A stretch of DNA of 64,000 bases, taken from assembly GCF_988243305.1 (NCBI RefSeq), contig NZ_OZ547136.1. The stretch is one strand, 5' to 3'. Below, piece after piece: positions 21,685 through 41,001 of the stretch. The notes below the pieces were generated by a model. The model was not told the DNA's origin. It did not search any database and was given only the letters and a program-made list of their open reading frames with translations. Numbering within the stretch: the first letter of the stretch is position 1; the number at the start of each line of letters is the position of its first letter. Made by a program: the position numbers and the translations under genes.

Positions 21685-21691
21685 CTAAGTA

Positions 21692-21969
21692 CCCCGGTCA
21701 GGGCTTCTCATCTCCCCCGGTGTGTGCAATATACGAAAAAAAAGCCCGTACCTTCGTACGAGCTCTTCTTTAAAGATGGCGGTGAGGGGGGATTGACTCG
21801 CTTCGCTCGCCCTGCGGGCAGCCCGCTCACTGCGTTCACGGTCTGTCCAACTGGCTGTCGCCAGTTGTCGAACCCCGGTCGGGGCTTCTCATCCCCCTGT
21901 GTGTGCAATATACGAAAAAAAAGCCCGTACCTTCGTACGAGCTCTTCTTTAAAGATGGCGGTGAGGGGG
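21692..21969. repeat. Two ~99-bp near-identical direct repeats separated by ~81 bp
   Basis: Copies at ~21692–21790 and ~21872–21969; on the minus strand each carries a stem-loop followed by T8. Confidence 0.6.
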
Positions 21970-22129
21970 ACCGCCTGAAATAAATCTGACTTAATCCAGG
22001 GGTGTTATATAATTTCATTATAAACAATGTATTACACTTTTTGTTGTCCGATATTATCTAATGTATTCTTAGTGAAGCGAGAGACTAATGGCATACTGGA
22101 TGGCATACCAGAGTGACGGGAATTAGCGT

Positions 22130-23332
22130 ATGGCAGTATTGACGGATACGAAAGCAAGACATATCAAACCTGATGACAAACCATTGCCCCATGGGGGAAT
22201 TACCGGACTGACCCTTCATCCTTCTTCAGTAAAGGGGCGGGGGAAATGGGTTTTTCGTTATGTAAGTCCGGTGACACAAAAAAGACGTAATGCTGGATTG
22301 GGAACTTACCCAGAGGTCAGTATTGCTGAAGCTGCACGTACTGCCCGGATAATGCGAGAGCAACTTGCTGCAGGTGATGATCCTCTGGAGATTAAAAAGG
22401 CTGAATCTGAGAAAGTCGCTATCCCAACATTTGCCGATGCAGCCAGGCGTGTACATGCAGAACTGTCTCCTGGATGGGAAAATCCAAAGCATGTAAGGCA
22501 GTGGTTATCGACGCTTGAGAATTACGCGTTTCCTCAACTGGGAGCAAAAACGCTGGATTCGATTACGGCTGCGGACGTGGCAGAAACACTGCGTCCAGTC
22601 TGGTTAACCTTATCAGAAACGGCAAGCCGGGTTAAACAGCGCATTCATGTTGTTATGCAGTGGGGATGGGCGCACGGTTTTTGTGTAGCAAATCCTGTTG
22701 ATGTGGTTGACCATTTGCTTCCTCAGCAGACAAGAGGACGTGATGAACACCAACCCGCAATGCCCTGGAGGCAGTTACCGCTTTTTGTGGCGACCAGTGT
22801 GTATACCGATGAACCTTATAATGTTACCCGCGCACTGTTATTAATGGTGATACTTACAGCAACTCGCTCGGGCGAAGCCAGGGGAATGCGCTGGGCTGAA
22901 ATTGATTTTCATAAGCGGGTATGGACTATACCTGCAGAAAGAATGAAAGCTAGGCTACAGCATCGTGTTCCTTTATCCCGGCAGGCTATTTACATTCTGG
23001 AAAATATACGTGGCCTGCATGATGAACTGGTGTTCCCTTCACCCAGAAAGCAGCAGATCCTTTCCGATATGGTGTTGACAAGTTTTCTGCGTAAAAAGAA
23101 AGCCGTCAGTGACATTCCGGGGCGAGTTGCCACGGCACATGGTTTTCGCTCAACATTCAGGGACTGGTGTAGCGAACAGGGGTATTCGCGGGATCTGGCG
23201 GAAAGGGCGCTCGCTCATACGCTGAAAAATAAGGTTGAGGCGGCATATCATCGTACTGATCTACTGGAGCAGCGTGTACCGATGATGCAGGCATGGGCGG
23301 ATTATGTGATGTCTCAAATTGTGAATAAATAA
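22130..23332 (+). CDS. P4-type tyrosine integrase
   Basis: 400-aa ORF with arm-binding-type N-terminus and C-terminal catalytic region (HGFRSTF ... LAH ... Y) as in P4/CP4-57-type integrases. Confidence 0.85.
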   Translation: MAVLTDTKARHIKPDDKPLPHGGITGLTLHPSSVKGRGKWVFRYVSPVTQKRRNAGLGTYPEVSIAEAARTARIMREQLAAGDDPLEIKKAESEKVAIPTFADAARRVHAELSPGWENPKHVRQWLSTLENYAFPQLGAKTLDSITAADVAETLRPVWLTLSETASRVKQRIHVVMQWGWAHGFCVANPVDVVDHLLPQQTRGRDEHQPAMPWRQLPLFVATSVYTDEPYNVTRALLLMVILTATRSGEARGMRWAEIDFHKRVWTIPAERMKARLQHRVPLSRQAIYILENIRGLHDELVFPSPRKQQILSDMVLTSFLRKKKAVSDIPGRVATAHGFRSTFRDWCSEQGYSRDLAERALAHTLKNKVEAAYHRTDLLEQRVPMMQAWADYVMSQIVNK

Positions 23333-26435: not shown

Positions 26436-26744
26436 ATGGGGGATAAAATGCCAGATCAATCCGGACACTGCAGGACTCCTTCACGCATCTTACGGATGCC
26501 TGAACTGAGCCAATTGTTAGGTATATCTCGTTCGACAATTTACGAAAAAATGAATCCGTTATCGAAATACTACGATGCAACCTTCCCCAGGCCGGTACGT
26601 CTTGGTAGTGGTTCTGTGGGCTGGCGTTCATCAGCTATTGACGAATGGCTTACTTTACATACTGTACCTGCCAGATCAGCAGTCAAAGGTGTTAATGACG
26701 AAGTGAGACATACGCTTTCTTCAGATATGACCATGAGCAGATAA
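26436..26744 (+). CDS. AlpA-family phage/island transcriptional regulator
   Basis: MPELSQLLGISRSTIYEKMNP HTH typical of AlpA-like proteins; true start may be internal. Confidence 0.7.
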   Translation: MGDKMPDQSGHCRTPSRILRMPELSQLLGISRSTIYEKMNPLSKYYDATFPRPVRLGSGSVGWRSSAIDEWLTLHTVPARSAVKGVNDEVRHTLSSDMTMSR

Positions 26745-26852: not shown

Positions 26853-26906
26853 GCTATTGTCGCTATTGTCGCTATTGTCGCTATTGTCGCTATTGTCGCT
26901 ATTGTA
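26853..26906. repeat. Tandem 9-bp repeat array (gctattgtc, six units, last degenerate)
   Basis: Directly visible; a related degenerate copy lies at ~27351–27394. Confidence 0.85.
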
Positions 26907-26937
26907 GCGGTAATTGCTGCTATAACCGAAACGTATT

Positions 26938-27204
26938 ATGAAAAAGGAAGCATTTATGCCTTACATCAAACCGGATATGCCGTATTCAGTATATGCATGA
27001 CCATCAATGATAGGGAAGGCAATAATTAAAGCTCAATACAATAAACAAGTACCTCTGACTCTGGTTGCAATGTCAGTATTAACAGCGATGTCAATTGCCT
27101 GTCAGAATCAGGTTGACGTATGCAGTCCCGGAAATTTACGTGGGGCCGTTAATATTTACACTATGGTTCTGGAGAAAGGGAAAAGACCGGGGGAAAGGTA
27201 TTAG
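26938..27204 (+). pseudogene. Degenerate partial duplicate of the YfjI-like gene N-terminus
   Basis: MKKEAFMPYIKP ... then ORF 27007..27204 (AIIKAQYNKQVPLTLVAMSVLTAMSIACQNQVDVCSPGNL) parallels residues 1–70 of the downstream gene, with a frame break. Confidence 0.55.
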
Positions 27205-27404
27205 TGAAATAATTTCCGGAGGTATTAAGAATGAGAAATATGAATGATATTTCGTGGTGAATAATACAGTCTTCACTGAATTAACCTTATCGGTTTATTA
27301 AACATCAGATCTACAAATGCTCTGTATTTCTCAGAGCATCAGGTCTGAATAGCAGCTATTTTCGCTATTGTAGCGGGATTTGCTGCTATTTTACTAACCC
27401 ATTA

Positions 27405-28856
27405 ATGAAAAGAGAGGCTTTTATGTGCTTACTTGCACCAGAAAATCCTTATCCGATATATGCACTACCACCGCTGGTGAGAAATGCAATAATTGAAACT
27501 CAAAAAAATACACAGGCACCTTTGGCTATGGTGGCAACATCCGCATTAACAGCGATCTCAATTGCCTGTCAGAATCAGATTGACGTGTGCAGACCTGGAA
27601 ATTTACATGGGCCTGTTAATCTTTACTCTCTGATTCTGGCTGATTCCGGTGAAAGGAAAACGACCGTGGATAAAGTGTTTATGAAAGCATTTTATCTCAG
27701 GGATGAAGCCCTGGCGGATGAATACGCGAAACTGGTTGAGAATTACAGTACAGAAAAGGAAATATGGGAGCAAAAACAAAAAGCGCTGGAATCAAAATTT
27801 CATAAAGAGATTCGTGCCGGTAAAGATTACAAGGCAACAGAATCAGAGCTTGAAACGCATCTGAATAAACCTCCTGTTCCGCCGCAGATACGTCGAACAA
27901 TTTTTAATGAGACAACGATAGAGGGAATGTTAAAATATTACTCCGATAGCAATCGCTCTTTTGCTCTTGTATCCAGTGAAGGGGGGGTAATTTTTGACAG
28001 CCGGGCCATGAGTAAACTGGGAATTATTAACACTTTGTGGGATGGAGGTTCTCTTTTCATCGACAGGAAATCATCTCCCGGAATTAATTTGAAGGAGCCA
28101 AGACTGACGATATCGGTGATGATTCAGCCTGATGTTTACCACAAAGGTTTTTGTACGCGAAAAAAAGAAATTGTGAAAACGTCAGGACATCATGCAAGGT
28201 TTTTGATGTGTCAACCAACATCAACGCAGGGGACAAGGATAATAACCGGAGATAATTATTCATCACAGTATCAGGATTTGTTTGAAGAGAGGATCAATGA
28301 GCTTATTGATGAAAGTCTGGCGATGAGTGGTGAACGACGTTGCCTTCACTTTTCTCCTCAGGCTGCCAGAATCTGGACGGATTATTACAATGATGTGGAA
28401 TCGAAGCTGGGGGGATTGGGGCCTTTAAGACATTGCCGGGAATATGCTGCTAAAAATGCAGAGTATATGGCAAGACTGGCAGGACTTATTTACCATTCGA
28501 GCGGTGAAGAGGGGGAGATTTCCCCTTACACTGCAGAAATGGCGAGAGAATTAGCAATATGGTACGGTAATGAGTATGTGCGGTTGTCTAATCCGTTAAC
28601 TTTTGACAACTCTGCCCTGACCGTACCTGTGCGACTCATTCCAGAGGAGCTTGAACTTTTCAACTGGATAAAAAGCTATTGTATTGAGAAGGGGATCCTC
28701 TGTATGAAAAAAAATGACATTTTACAGCGTGGTCCGAACCGTTTCCGGAAAAAGGATAAAATCAACTGGTTACTGGATTTACTGTATGAACAAAACAGAG
28801 TTGTACCGGTTATTGAGGGAAAAACGTTGTGTGTCGCACCTAACTTTGACCTCTGA
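27405..28856 (+). CDS. YfjI-like island protein (DUF3987-like)
   Basis: 483-aa ORF matching the YfjI family of CP4-57-type elements by recalled similarity and position after alpA. Confidence 0.7.
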   Translation: MKREAFMCLLAPENPYPIYALPPLVRNAIIETQKNTQAPLAMVATSALTAISIACQNQIDVCRPGNLHGPVNLYSLILADSGERKTTVDKVFMKAFYLRDEALADEYAKLVENYSTEKEIWEQKQKALESKFHKEIRAGKDYKATESELETHLNKPPVPPQIRRTIFNETTIEGMLKYYSDSNRSFALVSSEGGVIFDSRAMSKLGIINTLWDGGSLFIDRKSSPGINLKEPRLTISVMIQPDVYHKGFCTRKKEIVKTSGHHARFLMCQPTSTQGTRIITGDNYSSQYQDLFEERINELIDESLAMSGERRCLHFSPQAARIWTDYYNDVESKLGGLGPLRHCREYAAKNAEYMARLAGLIYHSSGEEGEISPYTAEMARELAIWYGNEYVRLSNPLTFDNSALTVPVRLIPEELELFNWIKSYCIEKGILCMKKNDILQRGPNRFRKKDKINWLLDLLYEQNRVVPVIEGKTLCVAPNFDL

Positions 28857-29676: not shown

Positions 29677-30240
29677 ATGTATAATGCTAATCCCAATTAC
29701 GAAATGGACTTCATGATTCTGAAAGACGTGAATGAACACATGGAAGGTCTGTTTCAACGTTTTTCTAAACTGTTACCTTTCAGAATTGATTTTGCCTACA
29801 GGAAAGACACGCCCAGTTTTGGTCATTCCTGTAGGCACAGTATGTGTATTGAAATGCACCGCTTACTTAGTGAAACCCAAACGATGCTGGCGGGATATTA
29901 CTGGGTAATGGAATATACGTCAAACAAGGGACTTCATATTCATTTTATCGGCTACTTGGATGGGCAACGTCACAAGAAATTTTATCGGATATCCAGGCAA
30001 CTGGGAGATATCTGGAGTCGGATCACGGAAGGGGAGGGTTATTTTCACCTGTGCAGTACTAAAGACAAATACTCGGTGCGTATCGATCACGTGATTCACT
30101 ATAGTGATAAGTCTGCGGTAGACGGTTTACGTTACGCCCTTAGCTACCTGGCTAAACAGGATCAGAAAGAACACGGTATTATTCTGGGCCGTAGCAGGCT
30201 TCCCGAAAAAAGCAACCGGGGCCGACCACGACATAACTGA
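29677..30240 (+). CDS. YfjJ/YagK-like protein (inovirus Gp2-type putative replication initiator)
   Basis: 187-aa ORF; family assignment from recalled similarity and position after the YfjI-like gene. Confidence 0.6.
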   Translation: MYNANPNYEMDFMILKDVNEHMEGLFQRFSKLLPFRIDFAYRKDTPSFGHSCRHSMCIEMHRLLSETQTMLAGYYWVMEYTSNKGLHIHFIGYLDGQRHKKFYRISRQLGDIWSRITEGEGYFHLCSTKDKYSVRIDHVIHYSDKSAVDGLRYALSYLAKQDQKEHGIILGRSRLPEKSNRGRPRHN

Positions 30241-30902
30241 ATTACAGTTGTATTAGGTATTAAAATTAAGTTTCTGTAAGTTGTTGGGAGGTGCTTGAGT
30301 TAATAGGCAGAAGAGGGCGGGGCGCTTTGTCATCAGTGTAGGGGACCCGAATTTCTGCCGTGGTACCTCAGTGGATCGGATACAGGTAACGAATATGGTT
30401 CATAAATCTGACAGTGATGAATTAGCTGCACTGAGGGCAAACATAACTTGAAGCTTATGGGATTGAATGGCGACGTAAACCGCAGAGTCCTGTGCAGTGC
30501 GTTTCCGTATTATCCACGGATGAGAAAGTTGCGTTATTTTGTCGACTGTTTCGCGGGCGTGATGATGTATGGGCCCTTCGATGGGAAAGCAAAACCAGCG
30601 GCAAATCAGGGTACTTGCGGGCCTGTGCTAACGAATGGCAGCCGGGAATAGCGGTAAACTCCGGATAAAATGTGGGGACTGCGCTCACCGTCAGTTGATC
30701 CCTGTATCTGATCTCATCATCTACCACTACACGGTTTAACGGGGCCGCGTCATCTCGGCGTTGCCCGATAAATTCTTTTCTACGTATAATAACCAGAATG
30801 AACGTGTAAAACACCATAGTATTCAGAACTATAAACATCGAAACCTGCCATATTGACCAGAATAAATGACCTTATTTTTACTGAAATTTAAGGAGAACAC
30901 CG

Positions 30903-33900
30903 TTGGAAGTAGAAATGTGGGATGGTGGCTTACAAGAACAGGAAGTATTGGCTATCGAGAAAATAAAAGCTGCTTTTTCAGTCAACGTATCTAAGCCTGA
31001 CAAGCCTTTCCGTAGCGGTTCAATTAGTGAGCAGCTAAAAAGCTATGGTTTTATCGGCAATGAAATGTTCCCTTGGAAAGGTTATGCAGGTTTTCGATTT
31101 GTTGAGGCAAAAAAAGAGGGGGAATTCGATTTAGTTATTGTAACACACTGCAACGTGATCATTGTTGAACTGAAAGACTGGAACCATCAGCCTGTAACCG
31201 CACGCGGAGATACTTGGTTTAAAGGCGATAAGAACATGGGGCGCTCGCCAGTAAGCGTGACTCGTAGCAAAAAATTCATGCTGGACAAAAAACTCAAGCG
31301 TCTGGTAGACCGTTTTACGAACAAAGGCTATATCCCGATTGTTCATTTTTTTGTTGTGATGACCGGCAATGCAGATTTCAGCGCGCTGCCGGAGGAACAA
31401 CGGCGCCATACGATCTCGTTAAAAGATTTCCTGAAGTTTGCCGATCGCGGGAGCTTCAATAACTATTTCAAACCGCACCCAGCTACCAAGGTTCTTAACA
31501 AGGATTTCCATCTTTTCGATGATTTGTTCCTAGGGCCTCAGACGGCACCAAAAGCCTTGAGAGTTAATGGCTATGAAGCTAATGATATGATTTTCGAACA
31601 TCCTAAAAAGGTGTATCGAGAATATCTGGCAAAATCTGAGATATCAACGAACAGCGAAGCGCTACTCAGAGTATGGAATTTTAGAAATATAACGGGAACG
31701 AAAGCGAATACCCCGGAAGGACGAGCTCAGATTGTTTCACGTGAGCGCGAAGTGTTACAGCACATCAATCACCAGAATCGTGACCTGTATAACCACTGTC
31801 TCAGGTCTTTGACGAGTTTTCAGAAAGACGAGGTGACGGCCGAGTATAGCGAAGTCTACGAAGTTCCGCCGGGTCATGTCCGGTTTAATGAGTTTATCGG
31901 AAAATATGGTAAGAACTTTTCTGATATGGACCGCTTGAATGTGGTGAAACTGCTCATTGCAAAGTTTAGTGATCTCCATGAGATGAAAATTGCGCACAGG
32001 GATGTCGCCGATCACAGTCTGTGGATTTCACCTTCAAAAGAAGTTGCTCTTTCGAACTTTATTTCGGCTTACCACCAGCCAGCCGGAACGGTTGGCGATT
32101 ACCGTAAGCTTTTATCCGTAGGTGCAGTCCACGTAAAAGACATGCTTGATAAGGGCGAGCTTACGCCTTTTCAGCAAGATGTTCATACTCTGGGCCTTGT
32201 CGCCTGGCACTTATTTAGCGGTATGCGCATGTCGCCAAAGAGTCTGGAGAAAGTACAGGACAACATGCTAAACAGCCAGCACTGGTATTCATCTGTATTA
32301 CGGGATGCCGTTGCCGCAAAATTCACTTCTGCAACAGAATTCTTTGATGCCCTGAAACAAGCCGAACCTGCTGGCAAGGATATTCCAACATTTGATGATA
32401 CTGAGCTTGACCCTTACCGACATGCTATCAATCACGCTCGTCAATACCCGGAAGACGATGGCTTTCAGTTTCAGGTCGAAACAGTCGACAAAGAAGTCTA
32501 TATCTCGAAAGGAAGGCTCGTGAAGGCTTGGCTGAATGTTGGGGGACAGGGATACGATCCGTCAATTAATTTCCAGGTTCTGAAGTTTTTAAAGCAGGTT
32601 GAGCGGCTTTCTTCAGTTAAAACAACGTATCTACCTCAAATTCGTGAATTCGGTATCGCATCAAAATCATCAAGCCTATATATGGTCACGGATCAGGTAC
32701 AGGGAGAAACCTGGGATAAAATAGCGGTCCCCGATGATGAAAAAATCGACCTCATTGGTAAGTTTGTCGCCGCCGTTGAGCACTTACATGGTCTGGGTGT
32801 TTCTCACGGGGACATCCACCCTGGCAATGTGATATTTGAGACACAGAGCCGTTTGCTTTTTCTCATCGATATCCCCGATTTTTCACCGTCCGGTGACGAA
32901 CCTAAAAATCACAGTTACAGCCCTGAATACATTGATAATTGTACTTCTTTTGAACGTGACAACTATGCAGTGATGAAGATGTCCTGCGAGTTGCTAGGCA
33001 TGTCATGGGGGCTGGAATCAGACATTTATCCGACAATCGCGAATGCTATCCGAGCAGAGCTGGAAGATCCGGTTTTTGGGTTTAAGGATTTAGGCCGCTT
33101 TAAAAAAGCGATAGATAGTAATGACCTGGTGCCAGAACAAGACCTGATAGAGATTACTGCAGGAAATGCCGATGAAATAATCTCTATTCTGCCTGATAAC
33201 GGGCATCTGTATGTCAAAGTTAAGTCAAATCCTAAAGCGCCAGCTGAAGTAAATGTGACTTTCTCTGGGATTGGTGGCAGTTTTACTGCGGTGTTCAACA
33301 AAGATCAGAAGACGCTGGTTCATGGCTTCAGGCCACGGGCTCGCGTCACAATTCGTAAGCAAGATATTGATGAAAGCCAGTTCGAAATTGATACTGGCAT
33401 CAAGATTATTCCCGGCAGTCCGCAGGATCTGTCGGCGTTGACAGTATTGCTTAATGAAGAAGAATCTTTTGCGCGGGCAATCGAGTTGATTGCCGCAACT
33501 GAAGATGTTCAGGTACAAGAGCCACTTACGCTTCAGCTAAAAGATACCTTTGCAAGGCTTGATAAGCAGACGCTTGAACCTTCTTTAAGAGAAGTGCTGG
33601 AAATCCCAACAGTGAAACTGTGGCGCGCCATTCTGGATACTGAAACAGAATCTTATCCAAACATTGAAATCAGCGGTGAAGTGGTCCCGGTTGCAGATGC
33701 TCATGGAGAGCTTCTTCTCCCTTACTCTGCTGATGTTGATCCACTCGGTGCTTTCAGAAGTAGTGATGAAGTCGAAGCCTTACAGGTCGATCAGGAAGGT
33801 GTTGAGCGATTTATTGGTGAAGTGTCACTTAAGAAGTCAGAGCTCAAAGAGATTCGTCTTGTCAAAGTTAGTTCAGCAGCCTTCAAGCTGAAGGATTCTG

Positions 33901-35873
33901 ATATTGTCTTCTTCCGTACAAGGCCGACTCGTGCATCTTATCAGAAACGTAAACGCGCACTGGAACGTCTCCTAGATCGAGAAAGTGTGCTGCCTGACTT
34001 AATTGACTTGTTCGATCCATCCTGCAAACAGGCGGCTCAAAATTATGGTATCACTCTCAGCGATACCGATTTTGCCAGATACGACCGTGAAGATCAGCAC
34101 GGAAACAAGATCAGTCTGAATGAACAGCAAAGAAAGGCGTTTAACAAACTGGTCAATAATGGCCCTCTCTCCCTGCTTCAGGGGCCACCGGGGACCGGTA
34201 AAACCGAGTTCATCGCGGCCTTTGTTCACTACCTGATCGAGAAACAGAATACCAAACGCATTTTACTGGTCAGCCAGTCACACGAGGCTGTGAATACAGC
34301 GGCCGAGCGTATCAGAAAGCATTGTTCCCGGCTTGGTACAGAGTTGGACGTTGTCAGGTTCAGCAACCGAGAGGGAGCCGTTTCCCCTGGCTTAAAAGAT
34401 GTGTACTCACACGCAATCACAACAGAGAAGCGCGAACTCTTCAATGCTGAAATTAAGTACCGTGTTGAAGCATTGAGTGAAGCTATTGGTCTGGAGCCGG
34501 GATTTATTTCGGGTGTTGTTCTTGCAGAGCTCAATTTGTTCAGACAAATCGATCACCTTGAGAAATTGCTCTATCAGGTTAACAATTTAACGGATTCAAA
34601 TGAGAGCAATGAACTGAAAGATATTGCAGTCGAACTCGATTTTTCCATCCGCTCTAAGCTGAGTCAGGAGTATGGGATTAACTTGGACAATGGCGTGAAG
34701 GTCTCAGCAGCAAAAGACATTCTGATTTCCAAGCTATGTACAGAGTATGGTGTCAGACCTGATGAGGCAAGACGAGTAAAAGCATTAGCTAAAATATCCC
34801 GTGATATGCAGGATGCTATGTCGGGAGAGCGAGTGAACCTGGACGAGTTTTATTCGCGCTCCAGGCAGTTAGTGGCTGGCACATGCGTTGGTATTGGACA
34901 AGGGCACATTGGCATTCAGGAGAATATCTATGACTGGGTGATTATTGATGAGGCGGCGCGCTCGATTTCAAGTGAGCTGGCCATTGCAATGCAGTCAGCC
35001 CGGCGTGTCCTGTTGGTGGGTGACCACATGCAGCTTCCTCCATTGTACTCAGATGCCCACAAGGCGGCATTAGCGAGGAAGCTGGGTATCAATAACTCCC
35101 GCACTGAAATTGACGAGGTATTACGAAGTGACTTTGCCCGAGCCTTCAACTCTGCTTATGGTGCGCAGACGAGTGCAGCTTTGATGACCCAGTATCGTAT
35201 GGCTCCACCGATTGGTAATCTCGTATCGAAGACGTTTTATGACGGGAAGCTTCTGAATGGAGTACGGGCAATTCCGGATGTCTATCAGCAAGCTCCGGAA
35301 GCGTTACGTAGCGTTGTAACCTGGCTTGATACTGCTAATCAGGGCCACCGAGCACATCATCTTGAAGATCGCGGAACAAGCATTTACAACCGATGTGAAG
35401 CTGACGAGATTATTTCTGTTCTTAAACAGGTGTCAGAGAATGAAGAATTTGTCGCTAAGCTTTCAAAACTTGTTAGCAAAGATGAAGCCGCTATCGGCGT
35501 GATATGTATGTATGCCGAACAAAAGCGGTTACTCCGTCAGAAATTCAATCAGGAAATCTGGAGCGAGGGATTTAAGGACATTGTTAAAATTGACACTGTT
35601 GACAGTTATCAGGGAAAGGAAAATCGGATCATTATCCTGTCACTGACGCGTTCGGATAAGCAGCATAGCCCAGGTTTCTTACGCGTTCCAAACCGTATAA
35701 ATGTCGCGATGTCACGCGCAATGGATCGACTGTTGATTGTGGGTAATGCCGATATCTGGAAGGGAAACAATAAAGAATTGCCATTAGGCTACGTTGTAAG
35801 TTATATGGCTGAGCGAGGTCAGGAAGCTGGATACAGGTTCCTCTCTGCTCAGCAGGGAGGCAAAAAGAAATGA
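30903..35873 (+). CDS. Giant multidomain protein: NERD-like nuclease region, two protein-kinase-like regions, UPF1-like SF1 helicase (candidate defence effector)
   Basis: 1656-aa ORF; aggaga SD 6 nt before the TTG start (alternative ATG at 30915); FDLVIVTHCNVIIVELKDW; IAHRDVADHSLWI and VSHGDIHPGNVIF...LIDIPDF; helicase motifs GPPGTGKT, VIIDEAARS, LLVGDHMQLPP, VDSYQGKE, RINVAMSRA. Confidence 0.8.
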   Translation: MEVEMWDGGLQEQEVLAIEKIKAAFSVNVSKPDKPFRSGSISEQLKSYGFIGNEMFPWKGYAGFRFVEAKKEGEFDLVIVTHCNVIIVELKDWNHQPVTARGDTWFKGDKNMGRSPVSVTRSKKFMLDKKLKRLVDRFTNKGYIPIVHFFVVMTGNADFSALPEEQRRHTISLKDFLKFADRGSFNNYFKPHPATKVLNKDFHLFDDLFLGPQTAPKALRVNGYEANDMIFEHPKKVYREYLAKSEISTNSEALLRVWNFRNITGTKANTPEGRAQIVSREREVLQHINHQNRDLYNHCLRSLTSFQKDEVTAEYSEVYEVPPGHVRFNEFIGKYGKNFSDMDRLNVVKLLIAKFSDLHEMKIAHRDVADHSLWISPSKEVALSNFISAYHQPAGTVGDYRKLLSVGAVHVKDMLDKGELTPFQQDVHTLGLVAWHLFSGMRMSPKSLEKVQDNMLNSQHWYSSVLRDAVAAKFTSATEFFDALKQAEPAGKDIPTFDDTELDPYRHAINHARQYPEDDGFQFQVETVDKEVYISKGRLVKAWLNVGGQGYDPSINFQVLKFLKQVERLSSVKTTYLPQIREFGIASKSSSLYMVTDQVQGETWDKIAVPDDEKIDLIGKFVAAVEHLHGLGVSHGDIHPGNVIFETQSRLLFLIDIPDFSPSGDEPKNHSYSPEYIDNCTSFERDNYAVMKMSCELLGMSWGLESDIYPTIANAIRAELEDPVFGFKDLGRFKKAIDSNDLVPEQDLIEITAGNADEIISILPDNGHLYVKVKSNPKAPAEVNVTFSGIGGSFTAVFNKDQKTLVHGFRPRARVTIRKQDIDESQFEIDTGIKIIPGSPQDLSALTVLLNEEESFARAIELIAATEDVQVQEPLTLQLKDTFARLDKQTLEPSLREVLEIPTVKLWRAILDTETESYPNIEISGEVVPVADAHGELLLPYSADVDPLGAFRSSDEVEALQVDQEGVERFIGEVSLKKSELKEIRLVKVSSAAFKLKDSDIVFFRTRPTRASYQKRKRALERLLDRESVLPDLIDLFDPSCKQAAQNYGITLSDTDFARYDREDQHGNKISLNEQQRKAFNKLVNNGPLSLLQGPPGTGKTEFIAAFVHYLIEKQNTKRILLVSQSHEAVNTAAERIRKHCSRLGTELDVVRFSNREGAVSPGLKDVYSHAITTEKRELFNAEIKYRVEALSEAIGLEPGFISGVVLAELNLFRQIDHLEKLLYQVNNLTDSNESNELKDIAVELDFSIRSKLSQEYGINLDNGVKVSAAKDILISKLCTEYGVRPDEARRVKALAKISRDMQDAMSGERVNLDEFYSRSRQLVAGTCVGIGQGHIGIQENIYDWVIIDEAARSISSELAIAMQSARRVLLVGDHMQLPPLYSDAHKAALARKLGINNSRTEIDEVLRSDFARAFNSAYGAQTSAALMTQYRMAPPIGNLVSKTFYDGKLLNGVRAIPDVYQQAPEALRSVVTWLDTANQGHRAHHLEDRGTSIYNRCEADEIISVLKQVSENEEFVAKLSKLVSKDEAAIGVICMYAEQKRLLRQKFNQEIWSEGFKDIVKIDTVDSYQGKENRIIILSLTRSDKQHSPGFLRVPNRINVAMSRAMDRLLIVGNADIWKGNNKELPLGYVVSYMAERGQEAGYRFLSAQQGGKKK

Positions 35874-37306
35874 TATCTGATAACAAAGTTACCTATCATG
35901 AGGTTGACTTCCTGCTGCCAGCACAGAGGTTTAACATTCAGTTTTCCTATGTTTCCCAGAAGGGGCTGCCATTTATCCGGGAGTTTGTGCTGAGACTTGT
36001 TCATGTAGCTTCGATGAGCAAAGCACAAATAGCAACCTATTTCGGCCTGACCCACCGTGAGACAGAGGAGGCGATTTCCGATCTTGTGCAGCGTGGCGAA
36101 TTGACGCTCTCCTCAGACGGCAGACTGGCCTTAACAGACAAATCAAATGGCTATTTTTCAGAGGTTGGCGAGATACCGCATCTTTCAACTATTCAGGACA
36201 GTGGCTGTACCTTATCCTTTGATTTAGCCACATTTAGTTGCTTCAGCAACCAGGCTTTTCAGGACCACTGGAGGGGAGGGGTAACATTAAAGGTTGATGA
36301 CAACAACATTTCTCAAAGTGAGAAACTGGTTGAGAAGCACTTTCAATACCAGTTTAATCAAATCCTGGATAAAGGTTACCTGTCTCACCTGCAGGTTCAG
36401 GTCGGAAAAGAACAACCTTCTATCTATACCGTTAATTCTGTTAATAAGCTGCGGCAAATACCACTCCGTTTAACAACGGAATTTAAAATGGATAGCGATG
36501 GTAAGGCTGTCGAGCGTGAAGACTATGAACAGTTAAATAGTTCGGAATGTGTTCATGAGTTAATGGCTGTTGAGATAGCCAGGTTATCACGGCATAACAA
36601 TACCATGAGTATTTTTAAGGCCATGCAATCCATTAACGATGACCTTACGCTTAAGCTGTTTGACTCTAAAACGAATCGACTTAATCCGTTGTTTATCAAA
36701 GATATGCAAGCACTGGAAGAATACTCGTCCTCAGGCAGAACGACTTTTTTAGGTCCGGTTTATTCTAAAAACAACTGGGAAAAGCTGCAGAAAGCTCTGG
36801 CACCAGCGCTCAATCAGCGTATCAGAGATAAAACTGATTATGGAGGTAGCCCGTTCATCTGGGTGGCACCATCAGATCCCTACTGGTCAAAAAGCATTCG
36901 ATTTATCTCAAGCCTGAGCAATTTTCTTAGCAAGTCGGCTACGAAGGATAAGCAGCTGTATAAACCGGTGCTGTACGTACCTGTCCGGGATGCAGCTGAT
37001 GCTCGGGTTGCCAGACAGTGGAAGTATGAACTTGGGCAATTCCATGAGTACGCTAAAGGACTAGTTGAGGGGCTGTTAGATGGTAATGTTGAGATCCTTC
37101 ATCTTGAGGATGAGTTATCTGCCGTTATCTATCATATTTCTCAACCCGAAATATTGCCTGTAACGATGCCACTGGGCTTTATCACAACGAACAAAGAAAC
37201 GGTTAAGATTATTGGTACTCTGGTTACTGAATATATCAAAGGCACCACTGGTTTTGATAAGTTTCATGACTGTGGCGCAATTTCGGCAATGATTAAGAAA
37301 GGTTGA
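35870..37306 (+). CDS. Hypothetical 478-aa partner protein with possible N-terminal winged-helix region
   Basis: Start overlaps the upstream stop (ATGA); no PLD HxK(x)4D motif seen. Confidence 0.7.
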
Positions 37307-37461
37307 GCTGTTGGAACAGGAGGTATGGGGCATGTTTGCGTATTTTTATGGAAAGAAATAACCCAATGACGGCGTTACTCTCCAACTGGGTTGACGCGTG
37401 CTGCCTGTTAATGGCTCCGCTGAATGATGCCCTATACCGTTATGTGATGAACACCCGCCTG

Positions 37462-37720: not shown

Positions 37721-38218
37721 CCCCTGCTGCCGGTTTTGCCGGGTGGCGCTTGCGCCTTACCCGGTCTGCTCATTGGGACAAGCGTTTAGTTAACGGGCAC
37801 CGCCTCAAACACCAGCGTTTCCAGCGGCTGCAACGTAATCACCGTCGCGTTTTTATACTCAACGGGCACGGTTTTATTGCTGCCGTATACCGCTTTCAGA
37901 CTAAACTGCGCCACGTCTCCTGTCGGTATTTCGAAATCCTTAGCCAAATCCAGATAGTAGGCCTGTGGCTTATCCGATGGGTTGCGCAAACCGAGAATGG
38001 CTTTGTCTTTGCTCCAGGATGCCCAGCCGTACACGGCAAGCGCCGTTGGGTCGCCGCCAATCCAGTGGGTATCAACCAGCACGCTGGCATTTTCCTTCGA
38101 CCATTTTGCAGCCTTCGCCAGCGTATCCCACTTCACCTTGTTCAGCATGGACGGGGTAATATACTGAACCGCCCCGGGAATCCTGGAGACTAAACTTCCT
38201 GAGAAAGAGGTAAACAGG

Positions 38219-38545
38219 ATGACTAAAAATACTCGTTTTTCCCCCGAAGTCCGTCAACGGGCAGTCCGTATGGTTCTGGAAAGTCAGAGCGAATATGACT
38301 CACAATGGGCGACAATTTGTTCCATTGCTCCAAAGATTGGCTGTACGCCGGAGACTCTGCGTGTCTGGGTTCGCCAGCATGAGCGGGATACCGGGGGCGG
38401 TGATGGAGGGCTCACCACCGCTGAACGTCAGCGTCTGAAAGAGCTGGAACGTGAAAATCGTGAACTGCGCCGCAGTAACGATATCCTTCGCCAGGCTTCC
38501 GCTTATTTTGCGAAGGCGGAGTTCGACCGCCTCTGGAAAAAATGA
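38219..38545 (+). CDS. IS3-family transposase OrfA (copy 1)
   Basis: 108-aa HTH/leucine-zipper OrfA ([19 protein letters not shown]...). Confidence 0.85.
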
Positions 38546-39432
38546 TGCCACTGCTGGATAAGCTGCGTGAGCAGTACGGGGTCGGACCGCTATGCAGCGA
38601 ACTGCATATTGCCCCGTCAACGTATTACCACTGTCAGCAACAGCGACATCATCCGGATAAACGCAGTGCCCGTGCGCAGCGCGATGACTGGCTGAAGAAA
38701 GAGATACAGCGCGTATACGATGAAAATCACAAGGTATACGGTGTGCGTAAAGTCTGGCGTCAGTTGTTACGGGAAGGTATCAGAGTGGCCAGATGCACTG
38801 TGGCACGTCTCATGGCGGTTATGGGACTTGCCGGTGTTCTCCGGGGTAAAAAGGTCCGTACGACCATCAGCCGGAAAGCCGTTGCCGCAGGCGACCGCGT
38901 AAACCGTCAGTTCGTGGCAGAACGACCTGACCAGCTGTGGGTGGCTGATTTTACTTACGTCAGCACATGGCGGGGCTTCGTCTATGTGGCGTTCATCATT
39001 GATGTGTTTGCCGGATACATCGTGGGGTGGCGGGTCTCATCGTCCATGGAAACGACATTCGTGCTGGATGCACTGGAGCAGGCGTTATGGGCCCGTCGAC
39101 CGTCCGGCACGGTCCATCACAGTGATAAAGGTTCTCAGTATGTATCGCTGGCCTACACACAGCGGCTTAAGGAAGCCGGATTACTGGCATCAACAGGAAG
39201 TACAGGCGACTCGTATGACAACGCGATGGCGGAGAGCATCAATGGTCTTTACAAAGCGGAGGTAATACACCGTAAGAGCTGGAAAAACCGTGCAGAAGTG
39301 GAACTGGCCACACTCACGTGGGTGGACTGGTATAACAATCGACGATTGCTGGAAAGGCTGGGCCATACTCCTCCGGCAGAAGCAGAAAAAGCTTATTATG
39401 CTTCCATCGGAAACGATGATCTGGCAGCCTGA
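38542..39432 (+). CDS. IS3-family transposase OrfB, DDE integrase core (copy 1)
   Basis: 296-aa ORF overlapping orfA, typical programmed-frameshift arrangement. Confidence 0.85.
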
Positions 39433-41001
39433 GTTCACAGATAAAACACTCTCCAGGAAACCCGGGGCGGTTCATACAGCTCCTGCAGCTGGGTGCCGGT
39501 CGCGAAGTAGCTCCAGACCTGATCGGCAAAGTCGCTGTCCGTTTGCACCTTCTCTAACCCGTAATAGGCATTCTCGGCGCTGACTATCCCGTGGTACATC
39601 AGCGAGTTCAGCGGGAACAGAGGGCCTTTACGGACAATGGAGCGGTACGTCTCGGCATCGCGGTAGGTCATCCACTGCTGCACCGGCGTACCGGAACCAT
39701 ACAGGTTGATGTCATCTCCCTGACGCCAGATAGAATCAGCGTAGAACAGCCAGGACGGGCTGGCGTCGGTGCCGGTGGTCAGGTTGATAAACAGATTCGG
39801 GGTTGCGCTGCGCATATTGTGCAGCAGGGCGATTGATGCATCGAAATCTGAGGCGAACGAGCTGCCTTTGATATGCGAACTGGCGTTACCCATCCCGTCG
39901 AGTTTAAACGAGGTGATGTGCTCGTTTTTGATAAGCTTGATGATCCGCTCATTGAAGTTTTTAAAGTAGTTCGCTCCCGACAGCGCCAGTTTGCCGTCCA
40001 CGGTTTCGAACCCATACTCTTTTGCATGCGAAACGCGAACGTCGCGCGGTTTGTTGTAGCCACCCCACGGTGAAAGCCATAGCCCAACGGAGCTGTGCAG
40101 GCTGTCGGCTTTCTCCCGTACTTTGCTAAAACCGTTTCTGAATGCCGTGCCAAATAGCCAGCGTCCGGTCAGATCGTCCCAGCCATCATCCAGCAGGAAG
40201 GCGTCCAGCGCCACGCCGCGGCCCGTAATGAACTCCTTGTTCCATTCGTCCATACGCCCCAGCACATCCTGTTCAGTGTAGGGAGTGAAAAAGCCGATAT
40301 CCATCCAGCTGTTGTAGTGCAGATAAGGCTTGTATGGGCGTGGACGTACGTCATTAATAAACTGGTTCACGCTGCGGCGCAGCTGGCTGGTTTCCGGGAA
40401 AGTGCCGAACCAGGTAGTAAAGCTGACCGGCGCCTCTGGCTGAATCGGCGTTTTCAGCTCTACGTTGAGATTGGTGGTGGCTTCATAGGCGTAGGTATTC
40501 ACGATCGGTTTATCCGGCAGGATAAAGAACGAGTCCGCAACGATCGGAGAGCTATTGATTGCGCCGTCTACGTAAGGGGCCTGAGACTGTTTTTGGGTCG
40601 GGAAGAAGGTGATTTTAGCGACGTCGCGCGGCTGCCCCACGGCGGCAATGGTGTAGCCGATGTTGGCGTATTTTCCCTTCACCAGGTTCAGCTTCACCGT
40701 GACGTTAAAATCCGGGTGCGTAAAGTCGATGACAATCGCGTTATCCTGCTTTTCGACGTGCTTGATTTTGAAATCCGCGGTGTGGATTTTACTCTCATCC
40801 GGCAGCGTCAGAAAGAACAACTCCTGCGGCGTGAGCGGATGGTTAGCCTTGTTGTCCTTCACCACGACCGTTGAGTTTGTATCATCAAACAAGAGGGCAA
40901 TATTGTCGTTATTGAGCGCGTAGTTTGCTGCCGCTGCACCATGAGAAACGCAGAGAGCCAGCAGTGAGAGAGTGAGCACTTTCTTCATCGGGGTAAGATC
41001 C

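What the first reader, a model, noticed from the sequence alone, without database searches (positions are those of the whole stretch)
30440..30700. Probable remnant of an earlier cargo gene upstream of the giant gene
A locally GC-richer stretch translates in one plus frame to AYGIEWRRKPQSPVQCVSVLSTDEKVALFCRLFRGRDDVWALRWESKTSGKSGYLRACANEWQPGIAVNSG before stopping. This reads like a real but truncated protein start. It would imply cargo replacement at this slot.
Basis: inference. Interest (0 to 1): 0.4.

Follow-up and report, generated by a model that had tools for sequence, protein, structure and literature searches.

The report
Dead primase-helicase stub before Mokosh
The stretch is the decayed first 15% of a primase-helicase gene whose remainder was lost where a two-gene Mokosh anti-phage cassette was spliced into a genomic island; it is real, but ordinary and already marked as a pseudogene in public E. 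coli annotations.

Summary
Window 30453-30669 translates exactly as quoted, and the stretch is locally GC-rich.

It is part of a 333-bp pseudogene at 30395-30727. This is the 5' end of a 786-aa primase-polymerase plus SF2 helicase gene (Pfam AEP-TOTE, E = 2.6e-19). An intact copy sits in the same slot of related E. coli O157 islands. The remnant has a 17-bp deletion, a 1-bp deletion and an in-frame stop. It ends at gene nt 351 of 2361, and no 3' part exists anywhere in the window.

From 30728-30734 to about 37303 lies a 6.6-kb cassette, the "giant gene" plus its partner. This is Mokosh type I (MkoA E = 0, MkoB E = 1.9e-151). It is about 91% identical to plasmid copies in Chimaeribacter and Klebsiella. 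Its right side abuts an IS66 stub.

About 280 complete E. coli genomes share this junction. Other strains carry the intact gene, different truncations, or no remnant at all. Replacement at this slot is therefore supported.

- **"Cargo" is unproven.** In E. coli the lost gene always follows the yfjJ-like gene.
- **It was probably already dead.** The 17-bp deletion is shared with differently truncated lineages.

RefSeq already annotates this pseudogene. Low interest.

The parts
29677..30240 (+). yfjJ-like / inovirus-type Gp2 family gene (187 aa). It is the conserved left neighbour of the primase-helicase gene in every E. coli island examined.
   Evidence: ORF listed. Weak Pfam hits to REP_ORF2-G2P and YagK_YfjJ_C. 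RefSeq name. 96.8% identical to the O157 copy.
30241..30394 (+). Intergenic spacer upstream of the pseudogene. It is 98% identical to the spacer in front of the intact gene. No structured RNA was detected.
   Evidence: Identity. Fold z-score is -0.33. No Rfam hit. No sigma-70-like site found here.
30395..30727 (+). Pseudogene: the 5' remnant (gene nt 1-351 of 2361) of an AEP primase-polymerase / SF2 helicase gene. After frame correction, 98 of 117 residues match the intact protein.
   Evidence: Pfam AEP-TOTE E = 2.6e-19, model positions 1-68 of 230. Alignments to the intact gene L002 12155-14515. RefSeq pseudogene annotation.
30441..30442 (+). Site of the 17-bp deletion (gene nt 48-64, AAATGCCCGTCTGGTCT). 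It causes the first frameshift and is followed by a TAA in the original frame.
   Evidence: The same deletion occurs in the Nissle/IAI39 and LHM10-1 remnants.
30650..30651 (+). Site of the 1-bp deletion (gene nt 274).
   Evidence: Among the seven sequences aligned it is seen only in the window copy.
30727..30734 (.). Left junction. Homology to the primase-helicase gene ends at 30727 (...CATCTACCAC). Homology to the plasmid-borne Mokosh upstream region starts by 30734 (GTTTAACGG...).
30728..37306 (+). Imported Mokosh type I cassette: own upstream region, mkoA and mkoB. It is 91.0-91.6% identical to copies on Chimaeribacter arupi and Klebsiella plasmids.
   Evidence: An 84.8% identical copy lies on IncHI1B plasmids.
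30761..30790 (+). Promoter-like site (TTGCCC, 18-nt spacer, TATAAT) inside the imported upstream region. It is a candidate for the cassette's own promoter.
   Evidence: Consensus scan (2 sites found, 1.5 expected by chance). The region is conserved in the Chimaeribacter copy. Function is inferred, not shown.
30903..35873 (+). mkoA, the 'giant gene' (1656 aa from TTG 30903; RefSeq starts it at ATG 30915). Domains: NERD, protein kinase, Upf1-like SF1 helicase.
   Evidence: PADLOC MkoA PDLC03921 E = 0, 2212 bits, full length. Pfam NERD, Pkinase, AAA_11 and AAA_12.
35870..37306 (+). mkoB (478 aa). Its native stop TAG has changed to AAG, adding three codons relative to the plasmid homologues.
   Evidence: PADLOC MkoB PDLC03923 E = 1.9e-151. 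Sequence comparison.
37307..37371 (.). Short stretch of about 65 bp of unknown origin between the cassette and the IS66 stub. Among the loci fetched here it occurs in full only in the Mokosh-bearing ones (L001, L004, L005).
37372..37458 (+). 3'-terminal stub of an IS66-family transposase gene. It marks the right border of the replaced segment. Strain NC101 keeps a longer piece of the same stub, directly after its yfjJ-like gene.

Best explanation
Window 30395-30727 is a non-functional 5' stub of a gene for a 786-aa archaeo-eukaryotic-type primase-polymerase fused to an SF2 helicase.

In intact relatives of this integrase/AlpA-like/YfjI/YfjJ-like island family, that gene follows the yfjJ-like gene directly. 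In this lineage three things happened.
1. The gene acquired a 17-bp frameshifting deletion, probably first.
2. Everything from gene nt 352 rightwards, up to the end of an IS66 element, was lost.
3. A compact 6.6-kb Mokosh type I anti-phage cassette (upstream region, mkoA, mkoB) now occupies the gap, joined by illegitimate (non-homologous) recombination. Its closest relatives found here are on Enterobacterales plasmids.

The stub itself does nothing. Mokosh most likely runs from its own imported promoter.

Shown here: the homology, the frameshifts, the truncation, the absence of the 3' part, the cassette's identity and borders, and the distribution among genomes. Inferred: the order of events, the recombination mechanism, promoter use, and the anti-phage activity of this particular copy.
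For: - **Exact translation and GC rise**.
- **Protein family match.** Pfam AEP-TOTE E = 2.6e-19 for the frame-corrected stub.
- **Intact homologue.** It has AEP-TOTE, ResIII and Helicase_C domains, and lies at the same position behind the same Gp2-like gene.
- **Defects in the stub.** Nucleotide alignment shows the 17-bp and 1-bp deletions and the end of homology at nt 351.
- **No 3' part.** tblastn finds only residues 1-118 of the protein in the 64-kb window.
- **Faster divergence.** The stub is 91.6% identical to the O157 allele. The adjacent intact gene is 96.8% identical and the spacer 98.1%.
- **Cassette identity.** MkoA E = 0 and MkoB E = 1.9e-151.
- **Cassette borders.** Window 30734-37291/37300 is 91.0-91.6% identical to plasmid copies with entirely different flanks: Avs1 genes in Chimaeribacter, and IncHI1B backbones in Klebsiella and Citrobacter.
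- **Right border.** It is an IS66 stub that NC101 retains in longer form.
- **Distribution.** About 280 complete E. coli genomes share the identical junction.
- **Independent annotation.** RefSeq annotates the stub as frameshifted and incomplete.
Against: - **No donor.** No sequence with near-100% identity was found, so the direction and source of the transfer are unknown.
- **Order of events is not secure.** CB209's second island shares LHM10-1's junction but lacks the 17-bp deletion. Either the remnants have recombined, or the deletion recurred.
- **Unexplained proximity.** A second, independent junction class lies only 2 bp away (nt 349). Purely random illegitimate recombination does not explain this.
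- **Untested function.** The promoter call is only a consensus match, and nothing here measures expression or defence.
Confidence: 0.9

Rival explanations
1. One-step displacement of a functional gene. The Mokosh cassette arrived by a single illegitimate recombination that destroyed a working primase-helicase gene, and both frameshifts accumulated afterwards.
For: Both cassette borders are sharp, and the 3' part of the gene is absent. Among the seven sequences aligned, the 1-bp deletion occurs only in the window copy.
Against: The 17-bp deletion is shared with the Nissle/IAI39 remnants (break near nt 247) and with LHM10-1 (break at nt 349). This is most simply explained if the gene was already frameshifted before the separate truncations. 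The right border is an IS66 stub, which hints at earlier IS-driven rearrangement.
Confidence: 0.25
2. The stub is retained because it still does something. It might supply a promoter or leader for mkoA, or encode a small peptide: the 18-aa ORF from ATG 30395, or the 58-aa ORF at 30492-30668.
For: The spacer upstream is 98% conserved. Stubs of similar length persist in more than 1000 genomes. The stub and mkoA lie on the same strand, only 175 bp apart.
Against: - Stubs end at different positions in different lineages: none at all, nt 247, 349, 351 and 905. They also carry different frameshifts.
- NC101 lacks the stub entirely.
- The stub diverges faster than its neighbours.
- The cassette brings its own conserved upstream region with a promoter-like site.
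- No RNA family match and no unusual fold.
Confidence: 0.05
3. The open frame is a chance ORF in GC-rich non-coding DNA, with no gene ancestry.
For: None beyond the fact that 70-codon open stretches do occur by chance.
Against: Pfam E = 2.6e-19. 91.6% nucleotide identity to an intact gene in the same genomic slot. 593 or more species carry full-length relatives of that gene.
Confidence: 0.01

Closest known systems
Intact E. coli AEP-helicase (WP_000233452.1, 786 aa; RefSeq name 'TOTE conflict system archaeo-eukaryotic primase domain-containing protein') in O157:H7-type islands
   Same: Same genomic slot, directly after the Gp2/YfjJ-like gene. The upstream spacer is 98% identical. The first 351 nt are 91.6% identical.
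   Different: The window copy keeps only 15% of the gene and has two frameshifts and a stop. It lacks the AEP catalytic core and the whole helicase.
TOTE conflict systems (TPR, OB, TBP, Effector; Aravind, Iyer et al. 2022, as cited in PMC12458937)
   Same: The AEP domain belongs to the Pfam family named after these systems (PF22548).
   Different: No TPR, OB or TBP partner gene is annotated beside the intact E. coli gene. In 22 of 80 loci from other species the partner is a roughly 181-aa protein with a weak DUF6155 match. At least three of those loci sit among type I restriction-modification genes. The 'system' label is therefore a domain name here, not a demonstrated system.
CRISPR-associated primase-polymerase (PADLOC PDLC01465 'PrimPol'; NCBIfam NF040561)
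   Same: The N-terminal 350 residues of the intact homologue match the PADLOC model at E = 2.5e-147.
   Different: No CRISPR-Cas genes are nearby. The NCBIfam equivalog score is far below its cut-off, 83 bits against 200.
Mokosh type I defence system (Millman et al., bioRxiv 10.1101/2022.05.11.491447)
   Same: Two genes. The first has an Upf1-like helicase plus a Ser/Thr kinase domain. There are full-length PADLOC matches to both MkoA and MkoB.
   Different: This MkoB has no Pfam hit and no HxK(x)4D PLD motif. Its stop codon is mutated, which extends it by three codons.
Defence-system hotspots inside mobile islands and satellites of E. coli (Hochhauser et al. 2023, PMC10121019; that paper cites Rousset et al. 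2022)
   Same: There is a fixed position in an integrase-bearing island where different strains carry different content, here including a defence cassette.
   Different: The alternatives at this slot are mostly not defence genes: iol genes, DUF417/TetR genes, IS elements, and another Gp2-family gene. The exchanges leave scars of illegitimate or IS-linked recombination rather than clean cassette swapping.

Membership tests
Pfam PF22548 AEP-TOTE domain family | Profile score above the gathering threshold | tested here: met
   70.2 bits against a cut-off of 27, E = 2.6e-19. Only model positions 1-68 of 230 are covered.
Pfam PF22548 AEP-TOTE domain family | Catalytic primase core (rest of the domain; the DNA_primase_S-like region at residues 147-245 of the intact protein) | tested here: not met
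   The intact homologue has it. tblastn finds nothing beyond residue 118 in the window.
AEP-helicase fusion protein (as WP_000233452.1) | C-terminal SF2 helicase (ResIII/DEAD plus Helicase_C) | tested here: not met
   Present at residues 423-738 of the intact protein. Absent from the window.
TOTE conflict system (TPR, OB, TBP, Effector) | Neighbouring genes that encode TPR, OB/cold-shock and TBP-like components | tested here: not met
   In intact E. coli loci the neighbours are a Gp2/YfjJ-like gene upstream and a small hypothetical gene plus IS elements downstream. The upstream protein hits only REP_ORF2-G2P and YagK_YfjJ_C, weakly. The small downstream ORFs were not scanned with profiles.
Pseudogene / gene remnant | Frame disruptions and truncation relative to an intact homologue, with the rest of the gene absent | tested here: met
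   17-bp and 1-bp deletions, an in-frame TAA, homology ending at nt 351 of 2361, and no 3' part in the window.
Mokosh type I | Adjacent MkoA and MkoB genes that match the family profiles over their full length | tested here: met
   MkoA E = 0, profile positions 1-1603 of 1607. MkoB E = 1.9e-151, profile positions 4-452 of 454. The two genes overlap by 4 nt.
Mokosh type I | Upf1-like (COG1112) helicase plus a Ser/Thr kinase domain in MkoA | tested here: met
   Pfam AAA_11 and AAA_12 (E = 1e-37 and 5e-42) and Pkinase (E = 1.8e-10), plus NERD. Family definition taken.
Mokosh type I | PLD-family nuclease in MkoB | tested here: not met
   No Pfam or NCBIfam hit, and no HxK(x)4D motif in the 478-aa protein. 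A fold comparison was not done, so a divergent nuclease is not excluded.
Mokosh type I | Protection against phage | not testable with these tools
   Needs plaque assays with this cassette.
   Integrase ORF at 22130-23332 and HTH ORF at 26436-26744. DUF3987 E = 5e-84 and weak YagK_YfjJ_C. RefSeq names.
   ARAGORN finds no tRNA or tmRNA in the window. In the most similar genomes the island lies next to dgcT/pga, and in others next to clpA or ycdU.

The most novel reading that the evidence does not exclude
The boundary just inside the primase-helicase gene (nt 349-351) may be a preferred recombination point. Islands of this family would use it repeatedly to exchange their right-hand content, so the conserved 5' stub would act as a landing pad for new cassettes such as Mokosh. 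The hint is that two independent junction classes, on stubs only 84-87% identical to each other, lie 2 bp apart.
Probability: 0.07. Interest if true: 0.5.

Novelty: already known. Interest (0 to 1): 0.15.

Why it matters
This is a clean, datable scar of defence-gene turnover inside a chromosomal island. A plasmid-type Mokosh cassette is spliced in with both borders resolved to within about ten bases, next to the stub of the gene that used to be there.

It is useful as an annotation note and as one worked example of how defence cassettes enter islands without dedicated machinery. It also cautions against reading the RefSeq label "TOTE conflict system" as evidence of a functional system here.

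It does not reveal a new kind of element or mechanism.

Tried and rejected
- **3' part of the gene elsewhere in the window.** tblastn found none, which rejects simple insertion.
- **Structured RNA or Rfam family in the conserved spacer and stub.** None found; fold z-score is -0.33.
- **Mokosh in E. coli with a different left flank.** Only IS1-truncated derivatives of the same island turned up.
- **Shared IS end at the nt-349 junction class.** I first thought the sequence there was an IS3-family end. The IS2 ends sit at different distances behind it in L007 and L095, and the sequence continues into another Gp2-family gene's upstream region in L006. It is therefore not an IS terminus.
- **Linkage of the AEP-helicase to YfjJ/YfjI outside E. 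coli.** No YfjJ or YfjI match in 80 loci from other species. A different partner of about 181 aa was found instead.
- **NCBIfam scan.** No family reached its cut-off for any of the proteins.
- **Large protein search.** It returned only near-identical E. coli proteins and added nothing on context.
- **Hochhauser et al. 2023.** The main text does not mention Mokosh, serX, ycdT, ycdU or DUF3987. Its supplementary hotspot tables were not checked.

Full report
**1. Observation**

Window 30441-30800, frame 1, reads T*LEAYGIEWRRKPQSPVQCVSVLSTDEKVALFCRLFRGRDDVWALRWESKTSGKSGYLRACANEWQPGIAVNSG*. This is exactly the quoted sequence.

GC reaches 0.52 at 30500-30699, against 0.37-0.47 on either side.

The third frame continues immediately with KLRIKCGDCAHRQLIPVSDLIIYH. 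An ATG at 30395 opens MVHKSDSDELAALRAN... in another frame. The quoted ORF is therefore the middle piece of a longer coding sequence that has been broken by frameshifts.

**2. What it is**

A frame-corrected translation of 30395-30740 matches Pfam PF22548 (AEP-TOTE, an archaeo-eukaryotic primase domain). The score is E = 2.6e-19, 70.2 bits against a cut-off of 27, covering model positions 1-68 of 230.

A megablast of 30241-30902 against 5,426 complete E. coli genomes finds matches in 1,748 genomes. RefSeq names the feature 'TOTE conflict system archaeo-eukaryotic primase domain-containing protein'. In a 100% identical record it is flagged 'frameshifted; incomplete; missing C-terminus', at the equivalent of window 30395-30730.

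In E. coli O157:H7 the same slot holds an intact 2361-nt gene (WP_000233452.1, 786 aa). That slot is directly after the same Gp2/YfjJ-like gene and behind a spacer that is 98% identical. The intact protein carries these domains:
- AEP-TOTE, residues 49-277;
- ResIII/DEAD, residues 423-565;
- Helicase_C, residues 639-738.

Relative to that gene, the window copy has four defects:
- a 17-bp deletion (gene nt 48-64, after window 30441);
- a TAA in the original frame just after that deletion;
- a 1-bp deletion (gene nt 274, after window 30650);
- an abrupt end of homology at gene nt 351 (window 30727).

After frame correction, 98 of 117 residues are identical. Fifteen codons differ synonymously and eleven non-synonymously.

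The stub is 91.6% identical to the O157 allele. The adjacent intact yfjJ-like gene is 96.8% identical and the spacer 98.1%. This fits relaxed constraint on the stub.

tblastn with the intact protein finds only residues 1-118 anywhere in the 64-kb window. The remaining 2 kb of the gene are gone, not displaced.

**3. What replaced it**

The 'giant gene' (30903-35873) and the next gene (35870-37306) are MkoA and MkoB of the Mokosh type I anti-phage system.
- MkoA: PADLOC E = 0, 2212 bits, full profile length.
- MkoB: PADLOC E = 1.9e-151.
- MkoA Pfam domains: NERD, a protein kinase domain, and AAA_11/AAA_12 Upf1-like helicase domains. This matches the published description of type I.

The cassette has plasmid-borne relatives in other Enterobacterales, with unrelated flanks:

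| Host and replicon | Window range matched | Identity | Flanking context |
|---|---|---|---|
| Chimaeribacter arupi plasmid | 30734-37291 | 91.0% | Directly after an AVAST type 1 system |
| Klebsiella IncHI1B plasmid | 30851-37300 | 91.6% | Hypothetical genes |
| Citrobacter IncHI1B plasmid (Enterobacter, E. coli and other plasmid hits at the same identity) | 30883-37300 | 84.8% | IncHI1B transfer genes upstream; a TnsD-family gene downstream |

The imported segment therefore starts within 3-7 bp of the point where primase-helicase homology stops. The junction reads ...CATCTACCAC | TACAC | GGTTTAACGG... It ends at the mkoB stop codon.

That stop is TAG in the plasmid copies and AAG here, which adds three codons.

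The imported upstream region contains a promoter-like site at 30761-30790. This is a consensus match only.

To the right come about 65 bp of unknown origin (37307-37371). After that comes an 87-bp 3' stub of an IS66-family transposase gene (37372-37458). Next are a 16S rRNA methyltransferase fragment and an enterotoxin gene.

**4. Other states of the same slot**

The query was the intact 2361-nt gene. Of 1,729 genomes with any match, 684 hold at least 80% of it, and about 1,045 hold only 5' pieces.

| State at the slot | Example strain(s) |
|---|---|
| This junction (about 280 genomes), plus IS1-truncated derivatives of the same island | many |
| No stub at all; yfjJ-like gene abuts a longer piece of the same IS66 stub | NC101 |
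| Break near nt 247, followed by DUF417/TetR genes | Nissle, IAI39 |
| Break at nt 349, joined to the upstream region of another Gp2-family gene; later IS2 insertions, and iol genes in ZYB39 | CB209 (second island), LHM10-1, ZYB39 |
| Break at nt 905 at an IS66 element, with its own 14-bp deletion | B1W1 |

NC101 keeps more of the IS66 stub, while the window keeps the gene stub. Neither arrangement derives from the other. Both descend from an ancestor with the order: yfjJ-like gene, primase-helicase gene, further sequence, IS66 element.

**5. Order of events (inference)**

The 17-bp deletion is shared by the window, Nissle/IAI39 and LHM10-1 stubs, which are truncated at three different points. 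The simplest reading is that the gene was already frameshifted when the truncations occurred. If so, Mokosh did not displace a working gene.

This is not secure. CB209's second island shares LHM10-1's junction but lacks the deletion. That requires either recombination among stubs or a recurrent deletion.

**6. Cargo or backbone?**

In E. coli the gene always follows a Gp2/YfjJ-like gene, in two different backbone layouts. This makes it look like the last gene of a conserved module.

Outside E. coli the picture is different.
- Full-length relatives at 65-73% identity occur in at least 593 species.
- Among the 80 loci kept, none has a YfjJ or YfjI homologue nearby.
- 22 of those 80 loci have a conserved gene of about 181 aa upstream of the primase-helicase gene, usually abutting or overlapping its start. 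It gives a weak DUF6155 match.
- At least three of the loci sit among type I restriction-modification or RhuM genes, such as HsdR in L073, HsdS in L024 and RhuM in L015. This is a defence-island-like context.

No TPR, OB or TBP partners are annotated beside the E. coli gene. These are the components that define TOTE systems according to PMC12458937. 'TOTE' here is therefore a domain name, not a demonstrated system. Whether the lost gene served defence or island replication remains open.

**7. Comparison and novelty**

The stub is an annotated RefSeq pseudogene, and Mokosh type I is a published system. Defence systems carried on integrase-bearing islands that sit at hotspots are well described in E. 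coli (PMC10121019).

This analysis adds three things:
- the exact borders of the cassette;
- its plasmid-type relatives;
- evidence that several independent rearrangements hit the same slot.

One detail is unexplained: two junction classes lie only 2 bp apart, at nt 349 and nt 351.

**8. Verdict**

The feature is ordinary genome decay next to an acquired defence cassette. Interest is 0.15.

Noticed in passing
window 1-21969 versus 22000-46000: The chromosomal flank (putA, efeB, phoH, pga genes and others) is at best 98.5% identical to any of the 5,426 complete E. coli genomes. The island part is 99.7-99.9% identical to the listed best E. coli matches. The island seems more recently shared than the host backbone, and the host may be a lineage outside this collection.
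   Followed up: no
window 21691-21970: ARAGORN finds no tRNA or tmRNA in the whole window, although the island integrase starts at 22130. An RtT-like element lies at 21777-21911 (minus strand), at 43.5 bits, just under the gathering score of 45. One roughly 100-bp stretch of the NC101 locus matches the window twice, at 21691-21790 and at about 21872-21970, which implies a direct repeat.
   Followed up: partly
window 35870-37306 (mkoB): MkoB matches the PADLOC model over its full length. However, it has no Pfam or NCBIfam hit and no HxK(x)4D motif, although Mokosh MkoB is described as a PLD nuclease. Its stop codon is TAG in plasmid homologues and AAG here, which extends the protein by three residues (KKG).
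   Followed up: partly
window 30890-30917: An AAGGAG sequence at 30890-30895 sits 7 nt before the TTG at 30903 and 19 nt before the ATG at 30915 that RefSeq uses. The TTG is conserved in the Chimaeribacter copy. The true mkoA start may be the TTG.
   Followed up: no
window 38164-39474 and 58132-59443: Two copies of an IS3-family element (about 95% identical to the IS in O157 locus L002). The first is inserted between the 16S methyltransferase fragment and the enterotoxin gene, and is absent from most otherwise identical islands.
   Followed up: no
L006 9320-9420, L007 9296-9400, L095 7381-7480, versus window 30697-30760: A second, independent junction class lies at gene nt 349 (CATCTACC|TGAGGTAGTGTA...), only 2 bp from the window's junction at nt 351. 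The stubs carrying it are only 84-87% identical to the window's stub. No recombination site was recognised.
   Followed up: partly
L073 5460-6002, L024, L065 and 19 other loci from other species: In 22 of the 80 loci kept from other species, the full-length AEP-helicase is preceded by a conserved gene of about 181 aa, usually abutting or overlapping its start (weak DUF6155 match, E = 0.003). In at least three loci the region lies among type I restriction-modification or RhuM genes (HsdR, HsdS, RhuM). E. coli copies lack this partner.
   Followed up: partly
window 37334-37356 versus L003 12446-12468 and L008 9313-9335: A 23-nt stretch in the unknown filler after mkoB matches (22 of 23, inverted orientation) the sequence just after the differently truncated stub in Nissle and IAI39. 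This may be chance or a trace of a shared small element.
   Followed up: no
window 26889-27215 and 27348-27692: The short DUF3987 ORF region upstream of yfjI and the 5' part of yfjI both cross-match the corresponding pair in the O157 and NC101 loci at about 73-74% identity. This suggests an old partial duplication of the gene's 5' end.
   Followed up: no
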